Assembly: GCA_026004035.1 (NCBI GenBank)
Contig: BPII01000011.1
Coordinates: forward strand, 11,416-75,415
Source: Candidatus Sericytochromatia bacterium
GTDB taxonomy: Bacteria > Cyanobacteriota > Sericytochromatia > UBA7694 > JACMQJ01
DNA: 64,000 nucleotides
Direction: 5' to 3'
Below the pieces are notes generated by a model. It worked only from the letters and a program-made list of their open reading frames with translations, was not told the DNA's origin and did no database searches. This document shows, in pieces, positions 11,237-34,885 of this stretch (within the stretch, counting starts at the first letter, position 1; each line of letters opens with the position of its first letter). The translations under genes were made by a program, and so were the position numbers.

Positions 11237-11614
11237 TTGAAAGGATTATTTTTGTTTCCAAGTAATGATATTAATTATTTCTTTTTTAAGAATATATCAA
11301 AGTCTGAATTTAAAATATTTATAGAAAAAATAAATAATTTTTTAAATAAAGAAAATATTAATAAAGTTTTAAGTTTAATTACTAACAATAATAATTTTTC
11401 TAATTATCAAAAAATAATAATAATTATATTTCTAGATTTGTCAGGAAATATAAAAGAATGTTCAAAATTAGTAGATTCTTTTGAAGAAGATTTTTTACTA
11501 GAAATAGTAAAAGAAAAGTTTATATATAATAAATTATCTAGAAATATAAAACAATTAATAATAAACAAATTATCAAATAGTAAGTGGATTTCTAATTATA
11601 AAGGTTCTTTATGA
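11237..11614 (+). CDS. Hypothetical protein
   Basis: 125-aa ORF with a TTG start. No recognisable motif. Its 3' end overlaps the convergent TPR gene by 19 nt. Confidence 0.35.
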   Translation: MKGLFLFPSNDINYFFFKNISKSEFKIFIEKINNFLNKENINKVLSLITNNNNFSNYQKIIIIIFLDLSGNIKECSKLVDSFEEDFLLEIVKEKFIYNKLSRNIKQLIINKLSNSKWISNYKGSL

Positions 11615-12513
11615 TTTTCCTCTTCAATTTCTTTTTCTATTAGAGAAATTTTTTCTCTTGCATTAATATCTTTAGGATTCATCTTCAAAATTACCTTATA
11701 TTCCTCGAGAGAATTTTTTATAAATCCTGTTTGAAAGTATATTAAAGCTAACTCATTTCTTAAGTTTAAATTTCCAGGATCAGATTTTATAGCTTCATAA
11801 ATATCTTTAATTTTACTTCTCAATTTTCTTCTTTTTCTATGTGCCATTCCCATAAATTTTTGTGTTTCTTGATCGCTTGGTTCATATCTTATTGCTTCTT
11901 CAAAATATATAAGTGATTTATCTAATCTACCTAATGCTAAATAAGCTACACCTAAATTCTTATAACTTATAGCATCCATCGGATCTATTTCTATAACTTT
12001 TTTATAGCATTCAATAGCTAAATCTATTTTTCCAATTGAATAATAGACATTTCCTAAATTTATTAAAGCACTTGTAAAATTAGGATTTAAGCTTATTGCC
12101 TTTTTATAATATTCAATAGCTTTTTCATTTTTAGATTGCTCTTTATAAACTATTGCTAAGTTATAATATGCAAGAACAAAATTTGAATCTAATTCTAATG
12201 CTTTTTCATAAGCTTTTATTGCTTGTATGTACATTAATTTGTTTTTATAAGCCACACCTAGAAGATTATGATAGAAAGGATCATTAGGATTTTCTTTTAC
12301 TTTGTTTTTAGCATTTTCTAGTTCTATATCAAGATGACTTTTATTTAATAAAGTTCTATTAATTTTATTTTTTGTAGATTTTGAAAGAGTAGTACTTTTA
12401 ATCTGTTTTTGAGAATTTACTGATTTTATAGGAGTTGTTTTAGATATTTTTGATACTATAGCTTTTTTAGGTGAATTATTATCAGAATTTTGATTTCTTT
12501 TTACAACTGCCAT
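11596..12513 (-). CDS. TPR-repeat protein
   Basis: Several canonical TPR units (e.g. AYYNLAIVYKEQSKNEKAIEYYKKAISLNPNF) follow a basic S/T/K-rich N-terminus. Confidence 0.8.
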   Translation of the reverse strand: MAVVKRNQNSDNNSPKKAIVSKISKTTPIKSVNSQKQIKSTTLSKSTKNKINRTLLNKSHLDIELENAKNKVKENPNDPFYHNLLGVAYKNKLMYIQAIKAYEKALELDSNFVLAYYNLAIVYKEQSKNEKAIEYYKKAISLNPNFTSALINLGNVYYSIGKIDLAIECYKKVIEIDPMDAISYKNLGVAYLALGRLDKSLIYFEEAIRYEPSDQETQKFMGMAHRKRRKLRSKIKDIYEAIKSDPGNLNLRNELALIYFQTGFIKNSLEEYKVILKMNPKDINAREKISLIEKEIEEENHKEPL

Positions 12514-14069: not shown

Positions 14070-16444
14070 ATGGAAAATAATCAAAAACTTTTAAGAATTT
14101 TAGAAAAAAATTATAAGCTAGAAAGACAAATAGGATCTGGTGGTATGGGTATTGTCTTTCTTGCAACAGATAAAAGATTAGAAAGAAAAGTAGCTATAAA
14201 AGTTTTGAAATTATCAGAAAATAATCAAGACTCAGGAATATCTAAAGAGGAAGTTCTAGAAAGGTTTCTTAGAGAAGCTAGATCAATAGCAAAGTTATCC
14301 CATCCAAATATAGTAAATATATTTGATATAGGAAATGAAGATGAAGTCTATTATATGGTTATGGAATATGTAGATGGATTTGTTTTATCTGACATTCTTA
14401 ATCAAAAAGAAAAAATAGATTATTCGGTTATACTTAATATAATTGTTCAAATTTGTAGTGCTTTAGATTTTGCTCATGAAAATGGAATAATACACAGAGA
14501 TATAAAACCAGCAAATATTATTGTTAGTAAAAAAGGTATAGCAAAATTAATGGATTTTGGAATAGCTACATTAAATAATAAAAAAGAAGCTTATAAACTA
14601 ACTCAAGCAGGTTCTATACTTGGAAGTATTATGTATATTTCACCAGAACAACTTAATGGATTCTAGTGCTGTTACTCCTCAAAGTGATATTTACTCTTTG
14701 GGAATAACTCTTTATGAACTATTAACAGGAGAATTACCTTTTATGTCTGACTCAATAAGTCAAATTGTTTTAAAAATTCTCTCCGAAATGCCTGAAAAAC
14801 CAAGTAAAATAAACCCTGAAATACCTAAAGAACTTGATGATATAATATTTAAAGCTATAAATAAAAAAGCTTCTGAAAGATACCTAAGTGCTTTAGATTT
14901 TGCTAATGATTTAAAAAAATTTATTATTGATTTTGACACAAACTTTATTATACAAAATAATGTAAATAATTCTCATAAAAACCAACAAACAATATTAATT
15001 AATTCTTATAAAGAGGAAAAAACTAGATAATTCTACAGTAATAATTACAAATAAGTTAACTGATACATTAACAAAATTAAAAGAAACAAATACCATAAAA
15101 ACAAAAATAAATGAACAACTAATAAATTCATTAGAAAATGATTTATCATGGATTAAAAATTTAATTTGTGATTGGGAAATAATAAAATCAAATAATAGTA
15201 TTAATGATTTTTTAGAAAAAAAACTTTCTGCAATTATATTAATAAATAATGAAATATTTTTATTTGTTTATGAAGGATTTACAATAGGAGCAGTTAATTC
15301 TGCTAATAGATTACAAGGTCAAGATGTATTTGATAATTTACCAATTGAATATGAAATGACAATATATGTTTCTCCAGAAGATAAATCTTATTTTCCTTTA
15401 ATAATATCAACATTATTTAATTATGAAACACCAATAGATATAAATGTCGATTCTTTAACTGTAGATGTAAGACCTTTAATAGATTCTTTATCATCTAAAG
15501 AAAATCCCTTTACAGGTATAGTCAAATGTTATATTGAAAGTAATATAATATATTATGGTTATTATAAAGGCAAACAAGTATTTAATGTATTAGCTGATAT
15601 TGAAGACGATATTGAAGAAGAAAACTACAAAGATATTAATGTCTTGATATTATATTCTGGAACTTTAATAAATACTTATCCTGTTAAAATAAGTCTTATT
15701 GGACCAAATTTAATAAATCTTTTTAAGGATACTATTATCTTATTGAAATATAACGATAATAATAATAAAAAATTAATTGATATTCTTGATTTAGGAAATG
15801 AAGAAGCACCTAACTTTCTAGTTAAAGAAGTTAAAAATAATACCAACTTAATTATTGAAAATAATAATAAATTTTTAAAAATATTTGATACTGAAATAGA
15901 TACATTAAAAACTATAAAAGAGAGTATTTACTATAAATTTTGTAATTGGCTTATAAATGAATATTTTTATAATATTAATTCTTCATTAAACACATTATCA
16001 TTTAAACCGATATATTCTTTAATACCTTATATAAATAAATTTACTTTTTATCAAAGTTTAAATAATTACTCATTTGAATTTCCTATTTTAATTAAAGGTA
16101 AGTTTAAAAATGATGAAAAGATATTTTTTATTGTTAAAATAGGTAATGGAAGTATACAAGAAGTTAATAAATTTTTAGAAGATATTATCAATTTAAAAAA
16201 CAACTATTTTCTTAAGTCTATTGATTTATCAGGATCATTTTATATATCACTAAGTAAATATGAAAATTATTCTTTAAAAGAATTTTTAGAAAAAACACAG
16301 GATAATAAAAAATCTTTTTTTAGTTTAGATAATACATACAAGTATAAAGGATTTATAAAACTTGGTTATAATAAAGGTATTCAATTACAATTTTTAGAAT
16401 ATATAAACAATAAATTTGAATTAATTGAACCTAAACTACTTTAG
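14070..16444 (+). pseudogene. Ser/Thr protein kinase fused to a ~470-aa uncharacterised C-terminal region, broken by two +1 frameshifts
   Basis: Segment 1 (14070-14666) carries GSGGMGIVF, AIK, HRDIKPANI, DFG and SPEQ. Segment 2 (14620-15030) continues with SDIYSLGITLYELLTG. A stop-free in-frame stretch of more than 100 codons runs from about 15031 into track ORF 15356-16444 and has no ATG/GTG/TTG of its own. The second shift maps to an A6 run at 15017-15022. Confidence 0.75.
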
Positions 16445-17154: not shown

Positions 17155-17545
17155 TTAACTTAAAAACTCGTTTATTGATTTTACTAATTCTCCAGTATTA
17201 ACTGGAATAATAAAATGTTTAATACTTAAATTTGATATTTTTTTTTGATTTGTAACATTATCTTCAAAAGCTTGTGAAATAATTATTATTGGTAAATCTT
17301 TAAAATACTCATTATTTCTAATATGTTTAGCATAATCTATACTTTCTTCAAATGTTTCTTTTGAAATTATTACTAACTTTGGTTCATACATAAAAACTTT
17401 TGCAAGAAATTCTATAAATTCTTCTTCATATAAAATATAATAATCATTTATATTTTTTAAAGATTGTTCTATAAGCTTTTTACTTATCTCTAAGTCAATA
17501 GAAGCTAATATTTTTTTTTTATTTAGAATAGAAGGTTTTTTTCAT
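17155..17545 (-). CDS. Receiver-like (pseudo-receiver) domain protein; N-terminus offset by +1 at an A7 run
   Basis: The track ORF (78 aa) extends upstream in frame as KKPSILNKKKILASIDLEISKKLIEQ... with a CheY-like alternating pattern. An ATG at 17545 joins that frame only if the A7 run (17536-17542) is read as A6. The phospho-acceptor position reads LVIIS and the K-P position reads I-P. Confidence 0.45.
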
Positions 17546-17690
17546 AATTTATTTAATAATATTAAATTAATTATAGTAGAATATCAAATATTTAATAAAA
17601 CTTTGTTAATAAATTATTTAACTATGAATGTAGAAAGTTTTATTATCTAAATATAGGTTGGATAATAGTTTTTAAATTTTAGAGGATTAA

Positions 17691-18653
17691 ATGAGAAAAG
17701 AATTTTTAGGAATTCATAATTACTACTTATATAAAGATTCTGGCTTATTATTTAATAATATTAATATTTCGAAAAATATTAATTTAAGCGGACTAAGATT
17801 TTCTAGTTCAGAAGATCAAATGACAATAAGACTAAGAGGTAATATGTCATTTGAAGAAAAACTGGAGCAAATAAGAGCTATAACGGGAAATGATCCTAGA
17901 GTTGTTTTAGATAGGCAAACATTAGATGCTTTAGCTAGTGGTAAAGATGTGGCTATTCATATAGAGAAAAACACTGAAAGAAGAAACCTTCTAATAGGTT
18001 TAGGTTCTTTAGCAGCAATGCTTATTGGAGGAATAGCTGGAGCATCTTATAATAAAGAGTTAGCTAATGCTGTTGATGATAGAATAAAAGGGGATGTCGA
18101 TTTTATAAAAAGAAATCCTCATTGGGATATGAATCCTTTTGGTGGTGCTACAGCTACAAGATACAATATTACTGCTACTACTATTGATGAACCTAATAAT
18201 CCTAGTAGAACAGAGCCTAGTAAAAATTTTGATCAGTTAATAATAGAAAATATTAATAGAATTCAAAGAGAAATGGCAGTAAAACTTGGTATTAGAGCTG
18301 ATATAAATCCATTTGAAAGAGCGAAAAACTATGGTGGGAGGTTTAATGAAAGAAGTCATTTAAATACTTCTGTTTATACTTTGTCTCAAGAAGATATGCA
18401 AGATCCAGCTGTTGTAGCATATTTAAAATCAAAAGGACGTACCTTAAAAGTCGGTAGTCAATTAAGCGTGGAGGATGCTTTTCAAATAAATATGATTAAA
18501 ACATTTGGTCTTAATGTACTTCAATCAATGTCTACTGGTTTAAAAGATGGAGATGGATATGTTGCAGGCTTTTCTGATGAACTACTAAGAATGAATGATA
18601 AAGACTTATTAGAAAGAATAAATGCAATAAGAAGTTTTAAACGGATTAGGTAA
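17691..18653 (+). CDS. Hypothetical protein with one central TM helix
   Basis: 320-aa ORF. The hydrophobic segment is LLIGLGSLAAMLIGGIAGA. No family recognised. Sits immediately upstream of the 1092-aa ORF. Confidence 0.6.
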   Translation: MRKEFLGIHNYYLYKDSGLLFNNINISKNINLSGLRFSSSEDQMTIRLRGNMSFEEKLEQIRAITGNDPRVVLDRQTLDALASGKDVAIHIEKNTERRNLLIGLGSLAAMLIGGIAGASYNKELANAVDDRIKGDVDFIKRNPHWDMNPFGGATATRYNITATTIDEPNNPSRTEPSKNFDQLIIENINRIQREMAVKLGIRADINPFERAKNYGGRFNERSHLNTSVYTLSQEDMQDPAVVAYLKSKGRTLKVGSQLSVEDAFQINMIKTFGLNVLQSMSTGLKDGDGYVAGFSDELLRMNDKDLLERINAIRSFKRIR

Positions 18654-18675
18654 CATAAAACCTGAAGAATTTCAA

Positions 18676-21600
18676 TTGTTAAAAACTTATTTGAATAGAT
18701 TTTTTAGATCTAATATGCAAATGGCAGATACAGCTGGTCTTTTTGATAATGTTACACAAAATACATTGAGTCAATTAAGAGATAAAAATGGAAATAAAAT
18801 TAATGTTACAATGGAGCAATTTAATGAAATTCTACAAAAACTAAGAAATAATCCTGCTTCTTTAACAAATCAAGAACTTTATATATTAGCTAATGTTGCT
18901 GAAATAGGTTTAAAAGATGGTGGTTATAATAGACGACTTGGCAATATAGATGATGGATTTTGGGGTGCTCAACATATGACAAATATGCAAGCTGCTATAA
19001 GTGATAGGATGCAAATGATGGGTGACTCTGCAATAGTTTTAAATAAGTTTGCACGAGGAGAAGCTCTTAATGATCAAGAAAAAGAATTATTATTAAAAAT
19101 TTACAATATGGCAAATCCAAATGCTAAAATTTCAGATTTAAGTCAAGCTACAATTACAGGGATTAATAATACTTTTGATTTTATACAAAACCAAATTCAA
19201 AGAATTGTTGATGCTGTAAGTAAAACAGAAAAAGGAATGTTTGGTAGATTTAACACTGTACTCCAAGAAAATCTTAAAAGAGCTACAGGAATTATTGATC
19301 AAATAGGTAACGCTCAAGCAGTATTCAATTTAAATGCAAGTGGTAATATTATTGATGTTAATGATGATTTAAGAAATTTTTCAACAGTAGTAAGTGGGAT
19401 GATAAATCCAAAAGGTTTGACTAATGAACAAATACAAAAAGCAATAGAAACTTATAATGCTGCAAATCCAAATGCTCAAATTAAAGATTTAAGTCAAATG
19501 ACAGAAGAAGGTATTAATAATGTATATTCTTCTGTTTCAGCTTCAAGTTCTAGTTCTTCTATTGCTCAAAGTGCAGCTTCAATAACTTCACAATTAGAAG
19601 GCAATATTACAGTCTCTCAAGCTACAAAAGACAATCTTACAAAAAATTTTACAGAAGCTTTAGCAAATCAACTAAGAGCTAATTTAATAAATGGTTTTAC
19701 TAATCAAGAAATTCAAGTTGTAGCTATAGCTTTAGCTAAAAGTAATGGTGATATTGAGAAAGCAAAATCAATTTTAGGTAACAATACTAGTGCTATTTCA
19801 TTACTTGATAATATTTTCAATAGAAATAATCCTGCCTTAATAAATAATTTTCAAGCTGTTGGTAATTTGTTTAATAGATTAAATGAAGTTCAAACTGAAA
19901 AAGTAAATCTAAGAATAATTTCTTCTAATATGGAAAAAGCAGAAGCTATGATAGGAAGATTAAAAGGAAAAGAAGGAGAATATAATCTTGCTACTGCAAA
20001 AAGTTTATTTGATGGTATAAATCAAATAGAAAATCAATTAAAAGAGGCTTATGATGTTTCAGATATATCACAATTACCTCAAGATGTCCGTGATAGATTT
20101 AATAAATTAAAAGCAGATGCTAATAGTGTTATAAGAAGAATAGAAGAAGCCAATAATGGTACTCAAGTTGTTAGAAGTAATATAAGTTCAGTTAATCAAG
20201 CTAAACAGTCTGGATATAATACAGGTCAAACAGATGGTACTAACAATACTTCTAATGCAGGTCAAACAGATGGTACTAACAATACTTCTAATGCAGGTCA
20301 AACAGATGGTACTAATAATACTTCCAATACAGGTCAAACAGATGGTACTAACAATACTTCTAATGCAGGTCAAACAGATGGCACTAATAATACTTCCAAT
20401 ACAGGTCAAACAGATGGCACTAATAATACTTCCAATACAGGTCAAACAGATGGTACTAACAATACTTCTAATGCAGGTCAAACAGATGGCACTAATAATA
20501 CTTCCAATACAGGTCAAACAGATGGCACTAATAATACTTCCAATACAGGTCAAACAGATGGTACTAATAGTCAATCATCTTTTAATAAAGATGATAAATC
20601 TTTGGTAGAAAAAATATTAAATGATATTTTAGAAAATCAAGATTTATCTGATGTTGAAAAATTAGAAAAAGTTCAAGAATTAGGAAGAATTTATAGAAAT
20701 GGAAGTATATTTGCTAAAGCTGCTCTTGAAGAACTTTTAGAAAAAGGTAATGATATGATAAAACAAGAAGCAAGTGATCAACTAAATGGTTCTGGAAAAT
20801 TTTTAGAAAGTATGGATGCTATATCACAAGGCTTTACTAAATTATCAGCATTCTTTGATGAAATAGCTATTTTATTTTTTGCAATTGCTGATAAAATTAT
20901 GAAAAAAGCATTTCAAGAAGCACAATTTGACTATGGTTTTAGTGGTCAAAACAATGGTAGTATTGCTTCGCGATATAAAGATGGTGCAAATAGTCCTATT
21001 ACAGATATATATGTAAATATGAAAAAAATGTATAATGATTCTTATGCTGCTTGGATTAGTATGGCTCAGTATGAAGCTATTCTTGCTGGAGATGAGAAAA
21101 AAGTTCATAAATTATCAGAAAATATTAAAATAGCAGAAGAAAATTTTAAAGAAATGCTAAGAAATTTATATGAAGGTAATTCTCAAGAGATTAATGAACA
21201 ACTAAAGGATGCTGCTAATAAAGGTAATAGGTTGGCTAAATTTGCTATGGGATTACCTTCTTTATCATTTCAAAAATTAGGATTAAAAGTTGATTCAATA
21301 GAGCAAGCTATTAGTGAAGCAGGTAGAAATTTGAGAACAAATGATTATAAAGCTACAGCTAGATTGGCTAATGCTCTTAACAGAGGTGCTGATCCTAATA
21401 ATAGAGATCCAGATGCTATGTTTTACGCTGATAATCTAAATGCATACTTTGCCTCTAGAAATTCTCAAGATAATAATAATTATATACAAAGTCTTCAAGA
21501 AGTAGCAGTATCAAGAAACAGTAACTTTAATCAAAAAAATAGAGCTATAAGACAGATAAGAGATGAAGCAATAACAGGAAGACTAGAAAGAGCTGAAGAA

Positions 21601-21954
21601 AGTTTAAGATCATTGGAAGAAATAATAAATGACTCTAATGCTACACAAGAAGTAAAAGACAGAGCTTTAGAGGCTCTTGCTGATATTGCATTAAAAGGAA
21701 ATTTAAGGATAGCACAACAAAGTTTAGAAATATTAAAAAATAATGCTATGAGTTCTACAGCATCAAAACAAACAAAAGATAAATCTATGAGTTTAATAGT
21801 AGATGTTGCTCTTTCTGATAGACAAATTTCTAAAAATGCTACTGAACTATTAAAAAGTAATACTATAGATGATGATTTAAAACTCAAAGCAATTTACTAT
21901 GCTCAAGCAAAAGATAAAGAAAAATCTGTTGATTTAATAGGAAATAAGAAATGA
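18676..21954 (+). CDS. Large hypothetical repeat protein (1092 aa) with an internal 12-aa tandem array and a HEAT-like C-terminus
   Basis: A long uninterrupted ORF in an AT-rich genome. It has a duplicated module YN.ANPNA.I.DLSQ.T..GINN (near 19100 and 19450), a GQTDGTNNTSN[AT] x9.6 array, and helical repeats such as VKDRALEALADIALKG. The track start is TTG; the ATG at 18715 is an alternative. Confidence 0.75.
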   Translation: MLKTYLNRFFRSNMQMADTAGLFDNVTQNTLSQLRDKNGNKINVTMEQFNEILQKLRNNPASLTNQELYILANVAEIGLKDGGYNRRLGNIDDGFWGAQHMTNMQAAISDRMQMMGDSAIVLNKFARGEALNDQEKELLLKIYNMANPNAKISDLSQATITGINNTFDFIQNQIQRIVDAVSKTEKGMFGRFNTVLQENLKRATGIIDQIGNAQAVFNLNASGNIIDVNDDLRNFSTVVSGMINPKGLTNEQIQKAIETYNAANPNAQIKDLSQMTEEGINNVYSSVSASSSSSSIAQSAASITSQLEGNITVSQATKDNLTKNFTEALANQLRANLINGFTNQEIQVVAIALAKSNGDIEKAKSILGNNTSAISLLDNIFNRNNPALINNFQAVGNLFNRLNEVQTEKVNLRIISSNMEKAEAMIGRLKGKEGEYNLATAKSLFDGINQIENQLKEAYDVSDISQLPQDVRDRFNKLKADANSVIRRIEEANNGTQVVRSNISSVNQAKQSGYNTGQTDGTNNTSNAGQTDGTNNTSNAGQTDGTNNTSNTGQTDGTNNTSNAGQTDGTNNTSNTGQTDGTNNTSNTGQTDGTNNTSNAGQTDGTNNTSNTGQTDGTNNTSNTGQTDGTNSQSSFNKDDKSLVEKILNDILENQDLSDVEKLEKVQELGRIYRNGSIFAKAALEELLEKGNDMIKQEASDQLNGSGKFLESMDAISQGFTKLSAFFDEIAILFFAIADKIMKKAFQEAQFDYGFSGQNNGSIASRYKDGANSPITDIYVNMKKMYNDSYAAWISMAQYEAILAGDEKKVHKLSENIKIAEENFKEMLRNLYEGNSQEINEQLKDAANKGNRLAKFAMGLPSLSFQKLGLKVDSIEQAISEAGRNLRTNDYKATARLANALNRGADPNNRDPDAMFYADNLNAYFASRNSQDNNNYIQSLQEVAVSRNSNFNQKNRAIRQIRDEAITGRLERAEESLRSLEEIINDSNATQEVKDRALEALADIALKGNLRIAQQSLEILKNNAMSSTASKQTKDKSMSLIVDVALSDRQISKNATELLKSNTIDDDLKLKAIYYAQAKDKEKSVDLIGNKK
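20224..20568 (+). repeat. 36-bp in-frame tandem repeat array (9 full copies plus one partial)
   Basis: There are two unit variants: A = ggtcaaacagatggtactaacaatacttctaatgca and B = ggtcaaacagatggcactaataatacttccaataca. The order is A A B' A B B A B B. The 108-bp A-B-B block is exactly duplicated (20332-20439 = 20440-20547). Confidence 0.95.
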
Positions 21955-27132: not shown

Positions 27133-28346
27133 CTTTCTTCAATTACATCTAAAATTTTCTCTTTTTTAGGTAATTTAAAATCATCTATTTTATATTTATA
27201 CAAAGGATCTATTTTTTTTATTGTTTCATTAGCTTTATTATAGGAATCTATTAAAATATTTAATTCTATAGAATAGAATAGTAAATTTAGTTTATCTTTT
27301 GAAATTTTATTTTTTAATAAATTTATCTTATTTACTATTTCAAATTCATATCCTGATAATTCTTCAATAGGTTTTAACATAATTTTTTTATCTATTTTTG
27401 AAATTAAATTACTTAATTCTTTTTCTTGAGGAACAATTATACTTTTATAATTATTTACTTGTTTGCTAATATTTTCCAAAGCTATTTTAAATATGTCTTT
27501 TTTTTGCTCTAAAAATTGTATATATTCTTGAGGTTCCTTATTAGAAATTTGGTAATATTCGAAGCTAAGAGGATCAGAATTAGTTAGAACAGGTTTATTA
27601 ATTAACTCTAAAAGTTTATTTTCACATTCCTTATATTCTTTTATAAAATCATTTATTTTTTTTTCTAGTAACAATTTTTTGTCGTTATCATTTTCCACTG
27701 AAAAGTTGTATTTTAAAGTTTCAATTTCTAACTCAATTAATGATGCTTTACTTTTATAAAAAAGTATAGATTCTTGTTGATTTGCTATACCATAATATAC
27801 TTTAATTTCAAAATTTTTATTAAATCTAGAAAGAACATCACTGTCTAATGGAACACTATCAAATAAGTCTTTAATTTCTTTAAATTCAAAATATTTTTCG
27901 TTATCATCTTTTCTTAAAGAAATAGCTTTTTCTATAAAATTATCATCTATTGGATTAATTTTAAATAAATCATTTTCTTGATTTGCTTTGTTGCTTCTTC
28001 TTCAATTCTTTCTTAAATTATTATTTTTTTTATTTTTTAGTTGCTTCGATTTCAATTTTTGAAATATTTCATTTTCTTCCATTGATCTTTGTAAATCAAA
28101 TGTTGCTTCATAAGCTTTTGAAAGCCACTGATGTGGTGTAGGATTATCAGGTTCTTCTTGAGCTGCTTTATTTAGTAATTCTATTGCTTTTTTGTAATCT
28201 CCTTGATTATACATCTTTATTCCTTCTTCAAGGTTGGTATTTGCAAAAGAGTAAGAAGGATAAAATGATACTATTAAAGTAACTAATATAATTTTTATTT
28301 TATTTTTCTTCATTGGTTTCATTTGGATTACTTCCACCTTCATCAA
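27129..28346 (-). pseudogene. Tandem paralogue of 26116-27132, split by a single in-frame TGA
   Basis: Track ORFs 28002-28346 and 27129-27698 lie in the same frame. The 101 codons between them are stop-free, and the only interruption is the TGA at 28002-28004. The downstream piece starts at a GTG with no obvious RBS. Confidence 0.7.
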
Positions 28347-29718
28347 GTATATAAGGGGTTACCATTAATATTAGCTCTACTTCTGATTCTGACCAAGAAT
28401 TAGCACCAAATAGTGGATCCTAAAAATGGTATGTCACCAAGTATTGGTAATTTTATTTGATCCAGTTGATGTATTTTTTCTTTTTAATCCACCTAGTACT
28501 ATTGACTCACCAGATTTAACTTTCATTGTTGTTTTCAGTTGTCTATCTAAGTGTTTCTGGAACAGGATTACCATTAACAATAACATCTTTACCTCTGCTA
28601 CTTATAGATGGGTTTAATTCTAAAGTAATAAATCCTTCTTCAGTATCTATCATAAGGGTTTAACTTTATGACTATCACCTATTTGTATATTTTAATATGT
28701 TTGAGTTGCTCCTGTTGCTGTTTGTGTTGTTTGTATTATAGGGACGTTTTCAGTTGCGGAAAATTCAGCTTCTTTACCACTTTGAGTAGCTATTCTAGGA
28801 TTAGAAAGAATTTTAGCTTTACTATCAGATATTAAAGCATTTAATTCAGCATTAAATTAGCTGTAAAATTTCTTAATGCTTGAAAATCTAATCTTATACC
28901 TGACGTAGTAACAGGAGGAGCACCTGCATTTGTTAATGCTGATGATTGAATAAGAGACAGTTCCAGCCACCAGCACCTTGTTGCTAAGTGCTTGAGCTGA
29001 ATTATTAAATGCCGCACCAAATTGTTTTTGACCATAGCCATAGCTCATACCTAAGTGTTTTAGCAGCTTGTTCAGTTAACTTCTACTAATTTTATTTCTA
29101 TCATAACTTGAGGTATTTTTTGATCTACTATAGATAATACAGACTCTAAAAAATCCATTTGAACTGGTCTTCCAATTACTGATAATATATTATTTTCATC
29201 AGTTGGTATCATTTCAGGTTTTGTTTTACCAGTAGTATAAAATCTTGTCATTCTTTTTAATAGCTTCTGATGGTTTCATATTTTTAATCTTATAATTTTT
29301 CATTATGGAGTCATCTATACCATTTCTTTTAAGTTCTTCTTCATCTGATATAAATATTGTTCTATTTATTTTTCTTGCTGTTAAACCTTTCATTTGTAAA
29401 ACTATACTTAAAGCTTCGCTTAATTTTACATTACTAAGTTCTATTCTATTAATAGAAGATTCTGTTACTTCTTTTTTACCACCTATTACTAAACTATAGC
29501 CTGTTTGATTCACTAAAGCTTTTAATATATCACTTACAATTGCATCACTGACTTTTAAATTAACATTAGGGTCTTTTTCTAACTTTATTAATGGTGTAAC
29601 TGATGTTTTTGTATTATTTACACTTATAGTTTGACAATCTTTCAGCTGCTAAAGTATTTGTAGATATTCCTAAGACTAAACTTAAAGACAAAATTAATTT
29701 TAATGATTTATTCATCAT
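28300..29718 (-). pseudogene. pilQ: Type IV pilus secretin PilQ, multiply frameshifted
   Basis: ATG at 29718 with RBS AAGGAG and the signal peptide MMNKSLKLILSLSLVLG. Fragments in different frames include the N-domain (track ORF 29226-29513), LNALISDSKAKILSNPRIATQSGKEAEF, KLPILGDIPFLG and the C-terminal ELILMVTPYIL. Confidence 0.8.
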
Positions 29719-29734
29719 ATTCAACTCCTTAGAT

Positions 29735-30727
29735 TTATTCTTCTTCAATTAATAATCTTGCCTTATATATTCCATCTGTTATTAAGAACAGATTTTCTAT
29801 TAAAATCTATAGAAACTATTCTTAATCTATCTCCATTATTATTTATTTCATCACCAACTCCTAGTAATTTACTTTCATCATTTACTGATAAAATAGCTAG
29901 TGGTTTAGTTCCTGTAACTATACCTGTTAATTTTAGATCCTTCTGATAAGTCGTTTTGCTTCTGAGACTAATATTTCTTCTTCTGTATTTTTATTATCAA
30001 CAATAATTTTTTTACCCGCATCTGTTTTTGGTATTTGTACAGGAGGTTTAACTTTGCTTTTATTTGTAGTTAATATTTTTATTATTTATATTTTTAGTAC
30101 AATAGATTATTATTTTTAATTTTAACATCATTTTTACTCGCATCAATTTTTGCTTGTTTCAGTAATGCTTCTCTTTCTTTTTCCATTTTCATAGCTAGTA
30201 AAGCTTTCTTTTCTTCTATTAATTCTTGAGGTACTTCTGGTAAGTTTATCTATTTTTGGTGGTTTCAGAGATATAAAAGGATCTACTCTACCACTATTTA
30301 ATCTTGCTTCTAATATTATCTCTTTAAAATCTTTCTGTTTTATTATTTCATCTTTAGGTAACTTCTACTATTTGTTCTATAGTTGTACTTTGAATTGGTT
30401 CAGGTGTTTGTAAAGGTTCAGGTGTTTTTATAACTTTAGGCGTTTCAATTGGTTCAGCTGTTTTATGATATTTCGATTTTTGGTAGTTTCTTTGACTATT
30501 TTTTCAGTTGGTTTTGGTATGGGTTTTATACTTTCTTTAATAGATATCTGATTGCTTTTATTTGATTTGTAGGTTGCGTTGTTATTGTAGGCGCTAACTG
30601 GTTCAGATGTTTGAATTGGATTATATACAATCTCTTCAGGTTCTTCTATGTAGTAAGAAAGTACATGTAATGATACTGCTGAAGTTATCAGTGCTGGTAA
30701 TATTATAGCATGTTTATTTATATTCAC
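29735..30727 (-). pseudogene. PilP-like pilus assembly protein with extended N-terminal region, frameshifted
   Basis: The N-terminal TM ORF is 30428-30727. The C-terminal piece LKLTGIVTGTKPLAILSVNDESKLLGVGDEI...RLRIVSIDFN resembles the PilP beta-domain. The pieces are in different frames. Confidence 0.45.
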
Positions 30728-30730
30728 TAC

Positions 30731-31400
30731 TTAATTTCCTCCTTCAGGTAAAAGGTAAGCTCTTAAATTAAGAGTTACTTTTAAAGCACTAAATTTATAA
30801 TCATTATCAGTTATAGGTGATAATGATATAGAAGCGGGATTTATAGCTCTTTGGTATTTTTCTAAATCTTTAAATAAACTTATTATATTAGGATAACTTG
30901 ATTCTAATGAAAGGTTTAAAGGAGTTTGACTTAAATTTAAATCAGCAGGTACACCACTTGCTAAATTTGAGGTAAATTAACTCTTTGTATAGAACCTGGG
31001 ACTAAATCAAATAAATCAGATTTATTATTTAATTCAACAAATTTTCCATATCATATATTAATGATGGAAGATTTTCTTTTGTAGGTATTCTTTCTTGTAG
31101 TTTTGCTATTTCTTTATTTAAATCTTCTATTGCTTTTTCTGTTTCATCTATTTTTCTATATCTTTTAGTTGTAGGGTTATAACCTAATTTTGTTTCTAAT
31201 GCTTGATTATCAGAAGATAGTTTTTCATTTTCTTCTAATAAAGTTTGATATTCTGTATATATTGGATATAATAAGTAATATCCTCCACCTAATAAAATTA
31301 GTAGAGATAAAACTCCACCAGCTATTAACTTATAAGATTCAGGTATATTTTTAAAAGAATCTGTATTTATTGTTATACCAAATACTTTTGTTTCTGCCAT
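30731..31400 (-). pseudogene. pilO: Type IV pilus assembly protein PilO, two frameshifts
   Basis: A 123-aa N-terminal ORF (TM plus coiled coil) is followed by VELNNKSDLFDLVPGSIQRVNLPQ and then NLASGVPADLNLSQTPLNLSLESSYPNIISLFKDLEKYQRAINPASISL..., each in a different frame. Confidence 0.6.
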
Positions 31401-31436
31401 TTTTCACCTAATTCATATTAATTTCAAATCTTAGAT

Positions 31437-32097
31437 TAAACTTTAGTTACAGATGAAAATTCTCTATCAACAGCTAAATTATTTTTTAATTTTGAAGAAT
31501 CTACTTTTTCTAAATCTCTTATTTTATATCACTTGTCTTTTTTGTATAATCTAAAACTACATTACTAAATCTTGGAGAATCTTGTATATTTGCAAGAAAT
31601 ATAGCTACTGTTTTATGATCAAAAGTTTCTCCAGACATAGTAATTTTATTTTCATTTATATCTATTTTATCAACCCAAAATTAGATGGTATTCTATCTCT
31701 GATTTCTTCAAGTAATTCTGACCATTTAAAATTACTTCCACTAGCCCATGCTAATATATCTCTTTTTTTCTCTACATTAGTTTTACAGCAAGTTTTTCTG
31801 TAAGAAGTTTATCTTGTTGCTCTAACTCAGCTTTTCTTCTTTCTAATTCTTGTTTTCTTTCAGCTTCTTCATCTCTTAAACTAGTTAAAACTAATATAAC
31901 CTACTGATAAAGCTCATTAAAGATATAAATAAAAATAAAACTGATAATATAATTCCTTTGCTTACTTTAGTTCCAGATATAGTTTTTTCTATTTCTTCTC
32001 TTACTTGATAACCAAGAAGATTTATATTTATTGATACAGTTAAATTTGTTCCTGTAGCAGATTTACTACCATCTTCTTTTTTTTCTAAATCTATCAC
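31437..32097 (-). pseudogene. pilN: Type IV pilus assembly protein PilN, frameshifted
   Basis: The N-terminal ININLLGYQVREE plus a TM helix (68-aa ORF). Later fragments (WSELLEEIRDRIPSNFWVDKIDINENKITMSGETFDHKTVAIFLANIQDSPRFSNVVL) are in other frames. Confidence 0.55.
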
Positions 32098-32140
32098 AGC
32101 TAAAAATTTTTACTCCTTAATCATTATATTTATTCTAACA

Positions 32141-32905
32141 TTATAAATTTAATTTTTCTAAATATAGTTCAAATAAATAATTATTGCTAAAAAAACTTAT
32201 TAAACTTCCAAGAGCTAAAAATGGTCCAAAAGGAAAATAATCACTTTTTTTTCTATATATAGTAAAGAGCTATTCCAAATAAAGAACCCAATAAAAAACC
32301 TATAAATAAAGTACCAAATAAATAGTTAATTCCAAGCCAAGCACCTATCATTGTTGTTAATGTTACATCTCCCAAACCCATTCCTTCTTTTTTTAAAAAA
32401 AATAAACTCCCCTTAGCAATTAAAAACAATAATTAAATATCCTAAAACTGCTCCTAAAATAGAATCAATAATTTTATTATCTAAAAAATTATAAATTATA
32501 CCTATTGCAATACCTGGATAAGTTAAGCTATCTAATATTAACATATAATCTATATCTATCCATGATATTACGATAATAAGACATATAAAATATGTAATAA
32601 AAATCCATTTCCAACTTATACCAAAAGTAAAGAAAGCAATACATAATAATAGAGCTGTTATAAATTCATTTAAAGGATATCTTATACTTATTGTCTTCTT
32701 TACAATATCTACATTTACCCCCTAAAATAATCCAACTTAAAATTGGTATATTATCATAAAACTTTATATCATTATTACATTTAGGACATTTTGAATTTGG
32801 ATATATTATAGATTTTTCTCTTGGAAGTCTATATATAACAACATTTAAAAAACTTCCAAGCATAGAACCAAAAATAAAAATTAATATAATATTTAAAATA
32901 TTCAT
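32141..32905 (-). pseudogene. pilD: Prepilin peptidase (A24 family) PilD, frameshifted
   Basis: The N-terminal Zn-finger region (CPKCNNDIKFYDNIPILSWIILGGKCRYC) is in the 79-aa ORF. The catalytic-region fragment KKEGMGLGDVTLTTMIGAWLG and the C-terminal PFGPFLALGSL are in other frames. Confidence 0.75.
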
Positions 32906-32989
32906 TGAAACCTATTTTGTATTTTATAACCTTAAATAAATTATAATGCTGTGATTATATACACATAAAATATTACTTTTAATTAAGTG

Positions 32990-33530
32990 TTAATTTACCC
33001 CTCTTGATGATAGTAATACAGGAAAAGTTTTAATAAAAATTTTTAAATCAAGACAAAATGATAAATTATTTATATATTCTATATCATATTTTAATTTAGT
33101 ATCAATACTTAAATCATCTCTTCCATGTATTTGTGCCCAACCTGTAAGTCCTGGTTTTACTTTAAAAACATTTTTTTTGTTCTTCTGTATATGTTTTTAC
33201 TATTGAAGGAACTTCTGGTCTAGGTCCTATTAAACTCATTTCACCTTTTAAAATATTTATTAATTGAGGTAATTCATCTATACTAGTTCTTCTTAATATT
33301 TTACCTACTTTTGTTATTCTAGGATCATTATCTTGAGTAAAACTGGTCCAATTTTATCAGCATTTACAACCATTGTTCTAAATTTATAAATTAAAAACTC
33401 CTTTTGATTTTTACCAACTCTTATTTGTTTAAAAAATATTGGTCCATTATCTGTAATTTTATTAGTATAGATACTATTATAAATAAAGGTATTAATAATA
33501 TTAATGAAAATAAAGAAAAAAAAAATCTAA
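32990..33530 (-). pseudogene. Undecaprenyl-phosphate sugar phosphotransferase (bacterial sugar transferase family), multiply frameshifted
   Basis: The fragments [65 protein letters not shown] and KPGLTGWAQIHGRDD lie in three frames. Confidence 0.75.
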
Positions 33531-33566
33531 TAATGGTTTAATTTTTATATACATTAAAATATAATT

Positions 33567-34885
33567 TTATATACCTATACAAAAATACTCAAAACCTAAT
33601 TGTTTCATTGTGTCTAATTCATACTGATTTCTACCATCAAATATAACAGGATTTTTTCAATAATAATTTCATCTTATTAAAATTAGGTCTTCTAAATTGT
33701 GGCCATTCTGTAACAAGTACAAGAAAGTCAGCATTTTCTAAACATTTGTACATATCTTGATTAAATTCAATTCTTAAATTGTCTTTAAAATACAATTTAG
33801 TTTTTTCAATAGCTTCTGGATCAAAAGCTGATATATAGGCATTTAAAACTTAAAAGTTTTTCTATTATTTTTAAAGAAGGAGCTTCTCTTATATCATCAG
33901 TATAAGGTTTATATGAAAGTCCCCAAATTGCAACTTTCATATTTTCAATACTATTGAATCTTTTCAAGATTTTATTTATTAGTATTAATTTTTGTTTATC
34001 ATTAACTTCCTTAGTAGCTTTAATAATTTTAGAACTATAGCCTTTTTCTTCAGCTATATAGTCAAGAATTTTTATATCTTTTGGAAAACAAGAACCACCA
34101 AAGCCAATACCTGGAAATAAAAATTTATGACCTATTCTACTATCATAAGACATTCCTTTTCTAACATTATTAATATTTGCTCCTAAAATCTCACATATAT
34201 TTGCTATTTCGTTTATAAAAGAAATTTTCATTGCTAAAAAAGCATTAGAAGCATACTTTGTCATCTCAGCTGATTTTATATCCATTTCAAGTATTGGATT
34301 ATCATTTCTAACAAATGGCAAGTATAATTCTTTCAGTACTTTTAAAGATTTCTGTGTTTCAAAACCTATTACTATTCTATCAGGTTTCATAAAATCTTCA
34401 ATTGCTGATCCTTCTTTAAGAAATTCAGGATTACTTAAAACATCAAATTCTAATTTTAAATTTCTTTTTTCTAAAGAATCTTTTATAATATTTTTTATAG
34501 TTTCACAAGTCCCTACTGGTGCTGTAGATTTATTAACAATAATTTTATAATCATTTATATTTTCTCCAATATCTTTAGCTACTTTTAAAAGATTTTTTAA
34601 ATTTGGTTTTCCTTCTTCATTAGAAGGAGTATCTACTGTTATAAAAACAATTGAAGAATTATCTAAAGCATATTTAATATTTGTAGAAAAAACTAATCTC
34701 TTTTCTTTTATATTTTTTTTTATTAATTCTTCAAGTCCTTTTTCATATATTACTGATTGACCTTTTGATAATTTATTTATTTTATCTTCATTAATATCTA
34801 CACAAATAACATTATTGCCCATTTCGGCAAAACATGTGCCTGTAACTAATCCAACATAACCAGTACCTATTATACAAAGATTCAT
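33567..34885 (-). pseudogene. ugd: UDP-glucose 6-dehydrogenase, C-terminal third displaced by two +1 frameshifts
   Basis: The 354-aa ORF has IIGTGYVGLVTG and GFGGSCFPKD. The continuation is NAYISAFDPEAIEKTKLYF...VLVTEWPQFR, then NPVIFDGRNQYELDTMKQLGFEYFCIGI* in shifted frames. The second shift is in a T6 run at 33652-33657 (A6 in the mRNA sense). Confidence 0.8.

What the first reader, a model, noticed from the sequence alone, without database searches (positions are those of the whole stretch)
17691..21954. Orphan two-gene unit: single-pass membrane protein plus 1092-aa modular repeat protein
Neither protein matches anything I recognise, and neither has an obvious Sec signal. The small one has one central TM helix. 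The large one has a duplicated ~40-aa module (…Y N . A N P N A . I . D L S Q . T . . G I N N…), a Ser run, a 12-aa T/N/G-rich tandem array acting as a probable flexible linker, and C-terminal HEAT-like helical repeats. Its amino-acid composition (A/Q/G-rich) differs from the K/I/N-dominated hypotheticals nearby. An ORF this long and intact, in a window with much gene decay, implies selection. It is a candidate surface, host-interaction or scaffold system of unknown type.
Basis: inference. Interest (0 to 1): 0.65.

Follow-up and report, generated by a model that had tools for sequence, protein, structure and literature searches.

The report
One frameshift-split gene, new Sericytochromatia family
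The "two-gene unit" is really one large gene of a previously undescribed protein family found only in Sericytochromatia (non-photosynthetic relatives of cyanobacteria), cut in two here by a one-base frameshift in a genome assembled from only about 4x read coverage; its function is still unknown.

Summary
They are not two orphan genes. An exhaustive phmmer search, then a profile search, found about ten homologues. All are from Sericytochromatia/Cyanobacteriota MAGs, and every complete one is a single 835-1778-aa protein whose N-terminus matches ORF A and whose body matches ORF B, in the same order. An HMM built without the window gives A E=1.6e-46 (positions 27-276) and B E=4.8e-30 (positions 351-916). 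In the window, B's frame is already open 45 nt upstream of its TTG and overlaps A's frame by 23 nt. One extra base in GAAGTTTTAAA (18631-18641) explains the split. A's last codons (AAA CGG ATT AGG TAA) look like out-of-frame read-through. The MAG (KatS3mg068) has 3.97x PacBio HiFi coverage and several other broken genes, but the junction k-mers were seen at least twice. No Pfam, NCBIfam, PHROGs, PADLOC, PDB-sequence or Foldseek match exists. The family has an invariant PERRNL motif followed by a G/A-rich hydrophobic helix, has no cysteines, carries a hypervariable low-complexity linker, and usually sits beside a divergent TPR gene. My best guess, at low confidence, is a membrane-anchored fibrous envelope scaffold. 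Interest is moderate to low.

The parts
17681..17686 (+). Shine-Dalgarno-like AGAGGA, 4 nt upstream of the ATG of ORF A
   Evidence: Read from the sequence. About 40 % of window ORFs have a comparable AAGGAG/AGGA element.
17691..18653 (+). ORF A (320 aa): the N-terminal part of the ancestral single gene
   Evidence: A family HMM built without the window gives E=1.6e-46 over HMM positions 27-276. A is 44 % identical to P0018 residues 60-181, E=8e-31.
17691..17720 (+). Conserved extreme N-terminus, MRKEFLGIHN (family consensus MKNYF[FY]GIN). It fixes the start codon.
   Evidence: M1, F5 and G7 are invariant in alignment A2. See also A4.
17853..18185 (+). Conserved N-terminal module (A residues 55-165): EITGNxP..., PERRNL, hydrophobic helix, GDxDF, LNPFGGA
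   Evidence: Alignments A2 and A4. AF2 with a 7-sequence MSA gives pLDDT 68-79 for residues 41-100.
17976..17990 (+). ERRNL motif (twin arginine). It is invariant in all type-1 members and reads ERVNL in type-2 paralogues.
17985..18050 (+). G/A-rich hydrophobic segment NLLIGLGSLAAMLIGGIAGASY, the putative membrane anchor
   Evidence: Kyte-Doolittle 19-residue mean is 2.04 here and 1.43-1.87 in homologues. The N-side flank carries RR and the C-side flank is acidic.
18132..18149 (+). NPFGGA motif, nearly invariant in the family
   Evidence: It was used as the search pattern.
18631..18653 (+). The 23-nt zone where A's frame and B's frame are both open; this is the site of the +1 frame change. The probable extra base lies in GAAGTTTTAAA (18631-18641). 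The tail AAA CGG ATT AGG TAA holds the only in-frame CGG seen in about 14,000 codons (18642-18644).
   Evidence: The sequence is identical in the Logan contig L001.
18676..21954 (+). ORF B (1092 aa from TTG; 1079 aa from ATG 18715): the body of the ancestral gene. No SD-like element precedes either start.
   Evidence: The family HMM gives E=4.8e-30 over HMM positions 351-916. BLASTP against P0018 gives E=2e-16.
18940..18990 (+). Conserved motif GNIDDGFWGAQHMTNMQ (family consensus TGNKDDxxLGGQHITNxQ)
19063..19191 (+). Module copy 1 (...YNMANPNAKISDLSQATITGINNTF...). This is the copy that aligns with the [FY]NxAN...SGNxTG module of the other family members.
19414..19542 (+). Module copy 2, a lineage-specific internal duplication that appears as an insertion relative to all homologues
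   Evidence: 64 % DNA identity, 18/43 aa.
19528..19560 (+). Serine run SSVSASSSSSS
19645..19875 (+). Conserved motifs NFTEALANQLRANLING and NNPALINNFQAVGNLFN
20218..20569 (+). 36-nt x 9.8 tandem array (12-aa unit GQTDGTNNTSN[AT]). It sits where the homologues have P/S/T/Q-rich low-complexity linkers.
   Evidence: It accounts for all but one of the non-self hits in the exhaustive search. The ORFs at 20188-20574(-) and 20234-20608(+) are shadows of the repeat.
20851..20961 (+). Conserved amphipathic helix plus the FDYGFSG motif
   Evidence: Kyte-Doolittle mean is 1.57, the segment contains D/E, and it is probably not a TM helix.
21568..21915 (+). It is absent from all homologues.
   Evidence: AF2 helices 991-1079 with pLDDT 63-75. 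Foldseek hits to DHR/ARM/HEAT have E>=0.07. No Pfam hit. Alignment A2.

Best explanation
ORFs A and B are the two halves of one ancestral gene of about 1,410 codons. The gene belongs to a previously undescribed protein family that has been seen only in Sericytochromatia/Cyanobacteriota MAGs. In every complete homologue, the A-like N-terminal module and the B-like helical body form a single polypeptide of 835-1778 aa. In this MAG, one extra base within GAAGTTTTAAA (18631-18641) shifts the reading frame by +1. A therefore ends after four out-of-frame codons (K-R-I-R-stop), and the body continues as ORF B. These points are shown directly: the collinear homology, the single-ORF state of all complete relatives, the 23-nt overlap of the two frames, the lack of an SD before B, and the presence of the junction sequence in at least two HiFi reads. 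The function is inferred, with confidence of about 0.35. On this reading the family proteins are bitopic fibrous proteins. The first ~95 residues, with a conserved MKNYFFGIN start, stay in the cytoplasm. The invariant PERRNL motif and the G/A-rich hydrophobic helix anchor the protein in the cytoplasmic membrane, N-terminus inside. The cysteine-free, A/Q/N/S/T-rich helical body, with its hypervariable low-complexity spacer, extends into the envelope as a scaffold or spacer. The cytoplasmic TPR protein that is divergently encoded next to most family members would bind the cytoplasmic N-terminus. If this topology is right, a free ORF B has no way across the membrane. The split copy is then either recently inactivated or depends on some rescue mechanism.
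For: One hit of the exhaustive phmmer search, P0018 (865 aa), matched outside the repeat. P0018 aligns to A at residues 60-181 (44 % identity, E=8e-31) and to B at residues 342-734 (E=2e-16), in the same order. A profile search then found P0088-P0092, and a scan of GTDB genomes found L006-L010. All complete members are single ORFs. An HMM built from 8 relatives without the window gives A E=1.6e-46 (HMM 27-276) and B E=4.8e-30 (HMM 351-916). B's frame is open from 18631, A stops at 18653, and the frames differ by +1. The only in-frame CGG in about 14,000 codons, plus a rare AGG, lie in A's last four codons. This is what one expects if those codons are B-frame codons (AAC GGA TTA GGT) read out of frame. 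No SD precedes B. The Logan contig L001, built only from k-mers seen at least twice (PMC12424806), is identical across the junction. For the functional guess: PERRNL is invariant in all type-1 members, RR lies on the N-side and acidic residues on the C-side of a 19-22-residue hydrophobic segment, and there are no cysteines in 835-1253 residues in any complete type-1 member. P/S/T/Q-rich linkers sit at the position of the tandem array. A divergent ~630-aa TPR gene with no TM segment or signal peptide lies next to type-1 genes in six loci.
Against: The MAG has only 3.97x HiFi coverage and 73 % completeness (PMC9671151 supplement). The window also contains other broken genes: a kinase, FeoB at an A11 run, a secretin, a prepilin peptidase and UDP-glucose dehydrogenase. 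A residual read error at the junction therefore cannot be excluded. The HMM does not align across the junction itself (HMM 277-350 is a variable linker), so continuity there rests on the frame geometry and not on residue-level homology. On function: the hydrophobic segment is only borderline in several homologues (Kyte-Doolittle mean 1.43-1.58), and most members have a polar Q in the middle of it. The overall charge asymmetry is weak. All conserved neighbours are predicted to be cytoplasmic. Both AF2 models are of low confidence (pLDDT 44.5 and 46.9), and no structural or profile match supports any function.
Confidence: 0.78

Rival explanations
1. Sequencing or assembly artefact. The gene is a single intact ORF in the organism, and the extra base is a residual PacBio HiFi or metaFlye indel in a 3.97x-coverage bin.
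For: Coverage is 3.97x, reads are >Q20 CCS assembled with metaFlye, and there are no short reads. One homopolymer differs between the MAG (T7) and the Logan contig (T6) at ~17536-17542, and this changes an upstream ORF from 129 to 78 aa. The FeoB break lies in an A11 run. The window shows roughly one frame break per 5-6 kb, so one break in a 4.3-kb gene is about what that rate predicts.
Against: The junction context is only T4/A3, which is not a long homopolymer. Logan discards k-mers seen once, so at least two reads carry this exact junction. The Logan contigs agree with the MAG at 11,149 of 11,150 aligned positions, including the kinase and FeoB breaks. No fused variant of the protein exists in the 5.8-billion-protein collection.
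Confidence: 0.17
2. Functional gene fission. The frameshift is real, and both pieces are made and work together. A acts as the membrane anchor, and B is a separately translated partner that re-initiates 22 nt after A's stop and binds A non-covalently. If PERRNL is a Tat motif, B could be carried across the membrane bound to A ('hitchhiking').
For: Both ORFs keep all family-invariant motifs. B has acquired its own elaborations: a duplicated module, a tandem array and a C-terminal helical extension. The break falls in the family's least conserved linker. ERRNL followed by a moderately hydrophobic G/A-rich segment ending in A-G-A fits the Z-R-R-x-hydrophobic-hydrophobic Tat pattern (established knowledge; sequence).
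Against: There is no SD or intergenic spacer for B. The frames overlap, which is what a fresh indel produces. A's tail uses codons that this genome otherwise avoids. No other family member is split. The elaborations in B could predate the frameshift. The RR motif lies 96-131 residues from the N-terminus, and type-2 paralogues have RV.
Confidence: 0.2
3. Recoding. Ribosomes reaching the never-used CGG codon (18642-18644), with tRNA-Lys on AAA in the P site, stall and slip +1 (AAA to AAC, then GGA...). This restores the full-length fusion ...AIRSFK-GLGNIKPEEF... at some frequency.
For: CGG occurs 0 times in 12,634 codons of 34 window ORFs and once in A, exactly inside the 23-nt overlap. A +1 shift at AAA-C enters B's frame. 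+1 shifts driven by a 'hungry' codon are an established mechanism (prfB, Ty1/Ty3; general knowledge).
Against: All CGN codons are very rare here (9 of 347 Arg codons), so zero CGG is not statistically remarkable. The CGG is more simply explained as out-of-frame reading of AAC GGA. No homologue has a shift site, since all are in frame. There is no SD-like stimulator, and tRNA-Lys re-pairs on AAC only at two of three positions. The tRNA complement is unknown (one search finds only tRNA-Phe in the window).
Confidence: 0.07
4. The architecture is the same single split gene, but the function differs. The family would be a cytoplasmic cytoskeletal or polar scaffold, and the G/A-rich segment would be a buried or peripheral helix and not a transmembrane pass.
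For: The hydrophobicity of the segment is borderline in several members, and most have a central Gln. All conserved neighbours (TPR, 674-aa and 139-aa proteins) lack TM segments and signal peptides. The body is coiled-coil-like, with weak hits only to coiled-coil families. Under this reading a split B would stay in the correct compartment.
Against: The invariant RR sits immediately N-terminal to a 19-22-residue apolar stretch that ends in small residues. There are no cysteines in >800-1200 residues, and P/S/T-rich linkers are typical of extracytoplasmic bacterial proteins. This evidence is suggestive only.
Confidence: 0.3
5. One reading: an independent, orphan two-gene surface or host-interaction system.
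For: There are two adjacent same-strand ORFs, one with a hydrophobic helix, and no database annotation.
Against: The two ORFs are collinear fragments of one protein family whose other members are single chains. About ten loci carry homologues, so the genes are not orphans. The MAGs come from hot-spring sediment and other environmental metagenomes, and nothing suggests a host.
Confidence: 0.04

Closest known systems
Bitopic, envelope-spanning fibrous scaffold proteins (TolA, TonB, FimV/HubP type)
   Same: A single N-proximal hydrophobic anchor is followed by a long, helical, low-complexity body rich in A/Q/K/E/S/T, whose length varies through repeats. There are no cysteines.
   Different: No sequence or profile similarity was detected (Pfam, NCBIfam, PDB). 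The anchor lies ~95-130 residues from the N-terminus, behind a conserved cytoplasmic segment. There is no TolA-III, TonB-C or LysM domain. The only FimV_Cterm hit has E=0.38.
Tat signal-anchored proteins (Rieske PetC/QcrA, hydrogenase small subunits)
   Same: The pattern (polar)-R-R-x-hydrophobic-hydrophobic sits directly before a weakly hydrophobic G/A-rich stretch that ends in A-x-A. An internal, uncleaved Tat anchor has a precedent in actinobacterial Rieske proteins (general knowledge).
   Different: The motif is far from the N-terminus, and the preceding ~95 residues are conserved. The three type-2 paralogues have R-V. There is no cofactor domain. The NCBIfam hits to the hydrogenase-2 small subunit and the FDH Tat region are insignificant (E=0.0055 at 15.7 bits against a 659-bit cutoff; E=0.18) and do not align the signal region.
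Frameshift-interrupted genes in low-coverage MAGs or decaying genomes
   Same: Two overlapping ORFs in different frames together cover one homologous protein. The same window has similar breaks in a kinase, FeoB, a secretin, a prepilin peptidase and UDP-glucose dehydrogenase.
   Different: The junction is not in a long homopolymer, and it was seen in at least two reads.
HEAT/ARM alpha-solenoid repeats
   Same: The last ~120 residues of B are predicted as 14-17-residue helices. The best Foldseek hits are to designed helical repeats, armadillo and HEAT proteins.
   Different: Foldseek E-values are >=0.07 from a model with pLDDT 63-75 in that region. There is no Pfam HEAT/ARM hit at E<=10. The region is absent from all homologues.
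Phage tail tape-measure proteins
   Same: They are long and helical, with G/A-rich hydrophobic segments and an A/Q/S/T-rich composition.
   Different: There are no PHROGs hits for six family members, no relatives in IMG/VR, and no phage genes nearby.

Membership tests
New Sericytochromatia family (operational definition from alignment A2/A4) | Conserved N-terminal start M-[KR]-x-x-F-x-G (consensus MKNYF[FY]GIN) | tested here: met
   Window A begins MRKEFLGIH. M1, F5 and G7 are invariant in A2.
New Sericytochromatia family (operational definition from alignment A2/A4) | PERRNL motif plus a G/A-rich hydrophobic segment ending G-A-[AS]-Y, then GDxDF and LNPFGGA | tested here: met
   A residues 96-153 carry all of these. 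The HMM gives E=1.6e-46.
New Sericytochromatia family (operational definition from alignment A2/A4) | Body motifs GNxDDxxxGxQHxTNxQ, QLxANxI, NPxLxxNFxAxGxL and FDYGFSG, in that order | tested here: met
   B residues 89-105, 324-340, 384-400 and 748-754. The HMM gives E=4.8e-30.
New Sericytochromatia family (operational definition from alignment A2/A4) | N-terminal module and body encoded as one polypeptide | tested here: not met
   In the window they are separated by a +1 frame change at 18631-18653. All complete homologues are single ORFs.
New Sericytochromatia family (operational definition from alignment A2/A4) | Divergent ~630-aa TPR gene immediately upstream (seen at 6 of the type-1 loci) | tested here: not met
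   An unrelated small ORF and rplU-rpmA lie upstream of A. The only TPR gene in the window is a short one (305 aa, 11596-12513), with 25 % identity to the TPR part.
Tat (twin-arginine) exported or anchored proteins | Z-R-R-x-hydrophobic-hydrophobic motif followed by a moderately hydrophobic h-region | tested here: met
   T-E-R-R-N-L-L-I plus a 19-residue segment with Kyte-Doolittle mean 2.04 that ends A-G-A.
Tat (twin-arginine) exported or anchored proteins | Motif lies within a short N-terminal n-region | tested here: not met
   RR is at residue 97 of A, and the ERRNL motif starts at residues 91-131 in the homologues, behind a conserved N-terminal segment.
Tat (twin-arginine) exported or anchored proteins | Twin arginine conserved across homologues | tested here: inconclusive
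   It is invariant in all type-1 sequences aligned, but reads R-V in all three type-2 paralogues.
Tat (twin-arginine) exported or anchored proteins | tatA/tatC present in the genome, and export depends on them | not testable with these tools
   Only a 64-kb window of a 2.64-Mb, 73 %-complete MAG is available.
HEAT/ARM repeat proteins | Match to HEAT/ARM profile models | tested here: not met
   No such Pfam hit for B residues 901-1092 at E<=10, nor for the whole protein.
HEAT/ARM repeat proteins | Alpha-solenoid fold of paired helices | tested here: inconclusive
   AF2 predicts helices 991-1079 at pLDDT 63-75. Foldseek hits to DHR14, ARM and HEAT have E 0.07-1.8.
Programmed +1 frameshift genes (prfB type) | Shift site conserved in orthologues | tested here: not met
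   All homologues are in frame.
Programmed +1 frameshift genes (prfB type) | Slow or unassigned A-site codon next to a P-site tRNA that can re-pair in the +1 frame | tested here: inconclusive
   AAA-CGG with CGG unused elsewhere. However, all CGN codons are rare, and re-pairing on AAC is imperfect.
Phage tape-measure proteins | Match to phage protein families, or a phage gene neighbourhood | tested here: not met
   with neighbourhoods.
Anti-phage defence systems | Match to PADLOC models | tested here: not met

The most novel reading that the evidence does not exclude
The frameshift is real but is suppressed at the level of translation. CGG may be effectively unassigned in this 24 %-GC genome, so ribosomes stall at AAA-CGG (18639-18644) and slip +1 into B's frame. 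The cell would then still make the full-length ~1,410-aa anchored protein. This would be a natural case of frameshift rescue by a hungry codon in an uncultured relative of cyanobacteria.
Probability: 0.07. Interest if true: 0.6.

Novelty: new variant of a known kind. Interest (0 to 1): 0.33.

Why it matters
Three practical points follow. First, the locus should be annotated as one interrupted gene and not as two hypothetical proteins. Second, the 'gene decay' in this window has to be read against 3.97x HiFi coverage. Third, a small, well-defined protein family specific to Sericytochromatia now exists. It has an invariant PERRNL anchor module, a cysteine-free fibrous body, a usual TPR neighbour and a paralogous gene cluster. 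Sericytochromatia are uncultured, and their cell biology is unknown. A lineage-specific envelope or cytoskeletal scaffold with a conserved partner set is a concrete target for anyone who obtains a culture or good metaproteomes. Beyond that, nothing here overturns current understanding.

Tried and rejected
**Family and sequence searches**
- Pfam, NCBIfam, PHROGs and PADLOC scans of A, B, sub-segments and homologues found nothing above threshold.
- PDB sequence searches with single proteins and with two family profiles gave only compositional hits: scytovirin to the repeat, and coronavirus S2 HR1 at E>=0.06.
- The word-indexed search with A and with B alone returned only self-hits. B's candidate list hit the 8000-candidate scoring cap.
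- In the exhaustive phmmer search with B, every non-self hit except P0018 was to the tandem repeat.

**Structure**
- AF2 of B without an MSA gave pLDDT 44.5, and AF2 of A with a 7-sequence MSA gave pLDDT 46.9. Foldseek against the PDB gave no hit at E<=1e-3 for either.

**Wider collections**
- The IMG/VR scan found no relatives.
- Two JGI metagenome scans found nothing, and then only a contig already known.

**Hypotheses considered and rejected**
- Horizontal transfer as the cause of the higher GC: rejected, because GC3 is native and the GC excess comes from amino-acid composition.
- An rRNA operon as the reason for the ORF-poor stretch at 28-33 kb: rejected, because Rfam finds only one tRNA.
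- -1 frameshifting at the TTTAAAC heptamer: rejected, because it would run from B's frame into A's frame, which is the wrong direction (read from the sequence).
- A homologue of the TPR / 674-aa / 139-aa / type-2 cluster inside the window: none found.
- Calling the upstream small ORF a response regulator: there is no Pfam support for this, even for the intact 129-aa version.

Full report
**The observation.** The window is a contig of the MAG 'Candidatus Sericytochromatia bacterium KatS3mg068'. The two ORFs are its genes KatS3mg068_1622 and _1623. ORF A is 17691-18653 (320 aa). ORF B is 18676-21954 (1092 aa from TTG, or 1079 aa from the annotated ATG at 18715). With 24 % GC, a random codon is a stop with P=0.09, and B's two alternative forward frames hold 102 and 178 stops. 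The ORFs are therefore real.

- One hydrophobic segment in A, at residues 99-120.
- A duplicated ~43-aa module in B, with local score 100 against shuffles 31.7 +/- 5.7.
- A Ser run.
- A 36-nt tandem array with 9.8 copies, encoding GQTDGTNNTSN[AT].
- An A/Q/G-rich composition. GC3 is the same as the rest of the genome, so the locally higher GC reflects amino-acid content and not foreign origin.

No curated family matches either protein. No solved structure matches by sequence.

**The ORFs are not orphans, and they are not two genes.** Word-indexed searches with A or B alone returned only self-hits. In the exhaustive phmmer search with B, every non-self hit but one was to the low-complexity array. 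The exception was P0018 (865 aa). Its residues 60-181 align to A (44 % identity, E=8e-31). Its residues 342-734 align to B residues 89-792 (E=2e-16 and 6e-5). The order is the same as in the window.

A profile built from this alignment recovered P0088, P0089, P0090, P0091 and P0092. A scan of one genome per GTDB species recovered five more loci. All five are from 'Candidatus Sericytochromatia' or 'Cyanobacteriota' MAGs. IMG/VR and the JGI metagenome collection added nothing.

Every complete member is a single ORF of 835-1778 aa. An HMM built from eight relatives, with no window sequence in it, scores A at E=1.6e-46 over HMM positions 27-276 and B at E=4.8e-30 over positions 351-916. The extreme N-terminus is conserved (MKNYF[FY]GIN against MRKEFLGIH), which fixes A's start codon.

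**The junction.** A's frame ends at TAA 18651-18653. B's frame is already open from 18631, so the two frames overlap by 23 nt and there is no intergenic spacer. They differ by +1. Removing one base from the window sequence would fuse them.

A's last codons are AAA CGG ATT AGG TAA. CGG is used 0 times in 12,634 codons of 34 other ORFs in the window, and AGG only 18 times. The single in-frame CGG in A or B is this one. The simplest reading is that these are B-frame codons (AAC GGA TTA GGT AAC, all ordinary) read out of frame. That places the extra base in GAAGTTTTAAA (18631-18641). Neither candidate start of B has an SD-like element, whereas A has AGAGGA.

**Is the frameshift real?** The MAG was assembled with metaFlye from a single PacBio HiFi run (>Q20 reads) with no short reads (PMC9671151). 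Its supplement lists KatS3mg068 at 3.97x coverage, 46 contigs, 2.64 Mb, 24.2 % GC, 73 % completeness, and GTDB placement c__Sericytochromatia; o__UBA7694; f__JACMQJ01.

The window contains several other interrupted genes:
- A Ser/Thr kinase (14070-15030).
- FeoB, broken in an A11 run (39564-41550).
- Secretin and prepilin-peptidase fragments (28.4-32.9 kb).
- UDP-glucose dehydrogenase (33637-34885).

An independent k-mer assembly of the same run (Logan) discards k-mers seen only once (PMC12424806). Three Logan contigs covering 11,150 bp agree with the window everywhere except one T6/T7 homopolymer. At that site the Logan version gives an intact 129-aa upstream ORF where the window has 78 aa. 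The A/B junction, the kinase break and the FeoB break are identical in both assemblies.

The junction was therefore seen in at least two reads, and it lies in a short T4/A3 context. I put the chance that it is an artefact at about 0.17, and otherwise treat it as a true mutation. A recent mutation leaves the downstream frame open whether or not selection is acting. B's intactness therefore shows that the gene was under selection until recently, not that it is now.

**Anatomy of the family (alignments A2 and A4).**
1. A conserved start and an NNYxHVR segment.
2. A module EITGNNPNxKLS...AIASGxDV...
3. The invariant PERRNL, directly followed by a 19-22-residue G/A-rich apolar stretch ending GAAY. 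Its Kyte-Doolittle mean is 1.43-2.04, and most members have a central Gln.
4. GDADF...LNPFGGAE.
5. A variable linker. The window's break falls here.
6. The body motifs DYLxLAxxAGLI, TGNKDDxxLGGQHITNxQ, [FY]NxAN...SGNxTG, QLxANGI and NPxLxxNFxAxG.
7. A P/S/T/Q-rich low-complexity spacer. The window's tandem array sits at exactly this position.
8. An amphipathic helix followed by FDYGFSG.
9. Unrelated C-termini.

The complete type-1 members contain no cysteine at all in 835-1253 residues. Three lineage-specific features of the window copy are the second copy of the [FY]NxAN module, the tandem array, and the ~330-residue C-terminal extension whose last ~120 residues form short helices. The 'HEAT-like' label for that region is unproven.

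A second subfamily, type 2 (L009, L010 and the gene downstream of P0090), has PERVNL in place of PERRNL.

**Genomic context.** In six loci a ~630-aa TPR protein with no TM segment or signal peptide is encoded divergently, immediately upstream of the type-1 gene. In several loci the type-1 gene is followed by a ~670-aa protein, a ~140-aa protein and a type-2 paralogue, or directly by the paralogue. None of these neighbours has a Pfam domain other than TPR. The window has lost this arrangement. It contains only a short, weakly similar TPR gene about 5 kb upstream, and no copy of the other genes.

**Mechanism (inference).** Several features fit a bitopic protein with about 95 cytoplasmic residues, one membrane pass and a long fibrous extracytoplasmic body of variable length:
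- RR immediately before the apolar stretch, with an acidic flank after it.
- The absence of cysteine.
- The P/S/T-rich spacer.
- The very long helical body.

The cytoplasmic TPR neighbour is a natural candidate to bind the conserved N-terminal peptide. I hold this at about 0.35.

The main alternative is a cytoplasmic scaffold in which the apolar stretch is not a membrane pass. It is favoured by the borderline hydrophobicity and by the purely cytoplasmic partner set. The PERRNL motif also fits the twin-arginine pattern, and an internal Tat signal-anchor is possible. However, the motif's distance from the N-terminus and the R-V in the paralogues argue against a simple Tat signal.

If the body is exported, then ORF B alone has no route across the membrane. 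The split copy is then either newly inactivated, or rescued by re-initiation plus association with A, or rescued by a +1 ribosomal slip at the unused CGG codon. These cannot be told apart with the data available.

**Comparison with known systems, and verdict.** No membership in a characterised family can be claimed. Every profile and fold comparison was negative. In architecture, the nearest analogues are the TolA, TonB and FimV/HubP-type anchored fibrous proteins.

The finding is best described as one frameshift-interrupted member of a new, narrowly distributed protein family of unknown function. The family is new at the level of sequence, its architecture is a familiar kind, and the 'two-gene system' is not real. 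Interest is moderate to low.

Noticed in passing
window 17155-17545 (- strand); L001 63-452: The small ORF upstream of A is 78 aa in the window and 129 aa in the Logan contig from the same run. The only difference is a T7 (window) against T6 (Logan) homopolymer at ~17536-17542. This is direct evidence of a homopolymer-length error in one of the two assemblies. Neither version of the protein has a Pfam match.
   Followed up: yes
window 14070-15030 (+): A Ser/Thr protein kinase is split into two overlapping ORFs (198 aa and 136 aa; Pkinase positions 1-169 and 169-252). The frame change is near AATGGATTCTAG, which is not a long homopolymer. The Logan contig L014 has the identical sequence.
   Followed up: partly
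window 39564-41550 (- strand): FeoB is split into a G-domain ORF (165 aa) and a membrane-domain ORF (506 aa), which overlap by 32 nt. The break lies in an A11 run. The Logan contig L013 has the identical sequence.
   Followed up: partly
window 28000-34885 (- strand): This ORF-poor stretch is not an rRNA operon (Rfam finds nothing). It holds a shattered type IV pilus / secretin cluster: Secretin and STN fragments, and prepilin peptidase A24 in at least two pieces. It also holds a UDP-glucose dehydrogenase that is broken near its C-terminus.
   Followed up: partly
whole window / MAG: KatS3mg068 has only 3.97x HiFi coverage, 73 % completeness and 4.3 % contamination (PMC9671151, supplementary file 4). 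Any claim of 'gene decay' for this genome needs read-level checking.
   Followed up: yes
L005, L006, L007, L011, L012, P0018 contig; L009, L010: Related MAGs share a conserved gene cluster: a divergent ~630-aa TPR protein, the type-1 family gene, then (in some loci) a ~670-aa protein, a ~140-aa protein and a type-2 paralogue. All of these partners are uncharacterised.
   Followed up: partly
L009 10001-15337: The 1778-aa type-2 paralogue of MAG STL-CYA2 contains the core module (DYLxLAxxAGI... LGxEHxxSLQ) twice. Internal duplication of modules therefore recurs in this family.
   Followed up: no
window 15356-16444 (+): A 362-aa protein with a DUF7527 match (E=5e-11) lies directly after the broken kinase gene.
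   Followed up: no
window, 34 ORFs: Arginine codon usage is extreme: AGA 320, AGG 18, CGT 5, CGA 4, CGC 0, CGG 0 in 12,634 codons. CGG may be unassigned or nearly so in this 24 %-GC genome.
   Followed up: partly
window 20188-20608, both strands: Two ORFs listed over the tandem array (128 aa on the - strand, 124 aa in another + frame) are repeat shadows and not genes. The Logan contig L001 ends 30 nt into the array, so the copy number rests on the few long reads alone.
   Followed up: partly
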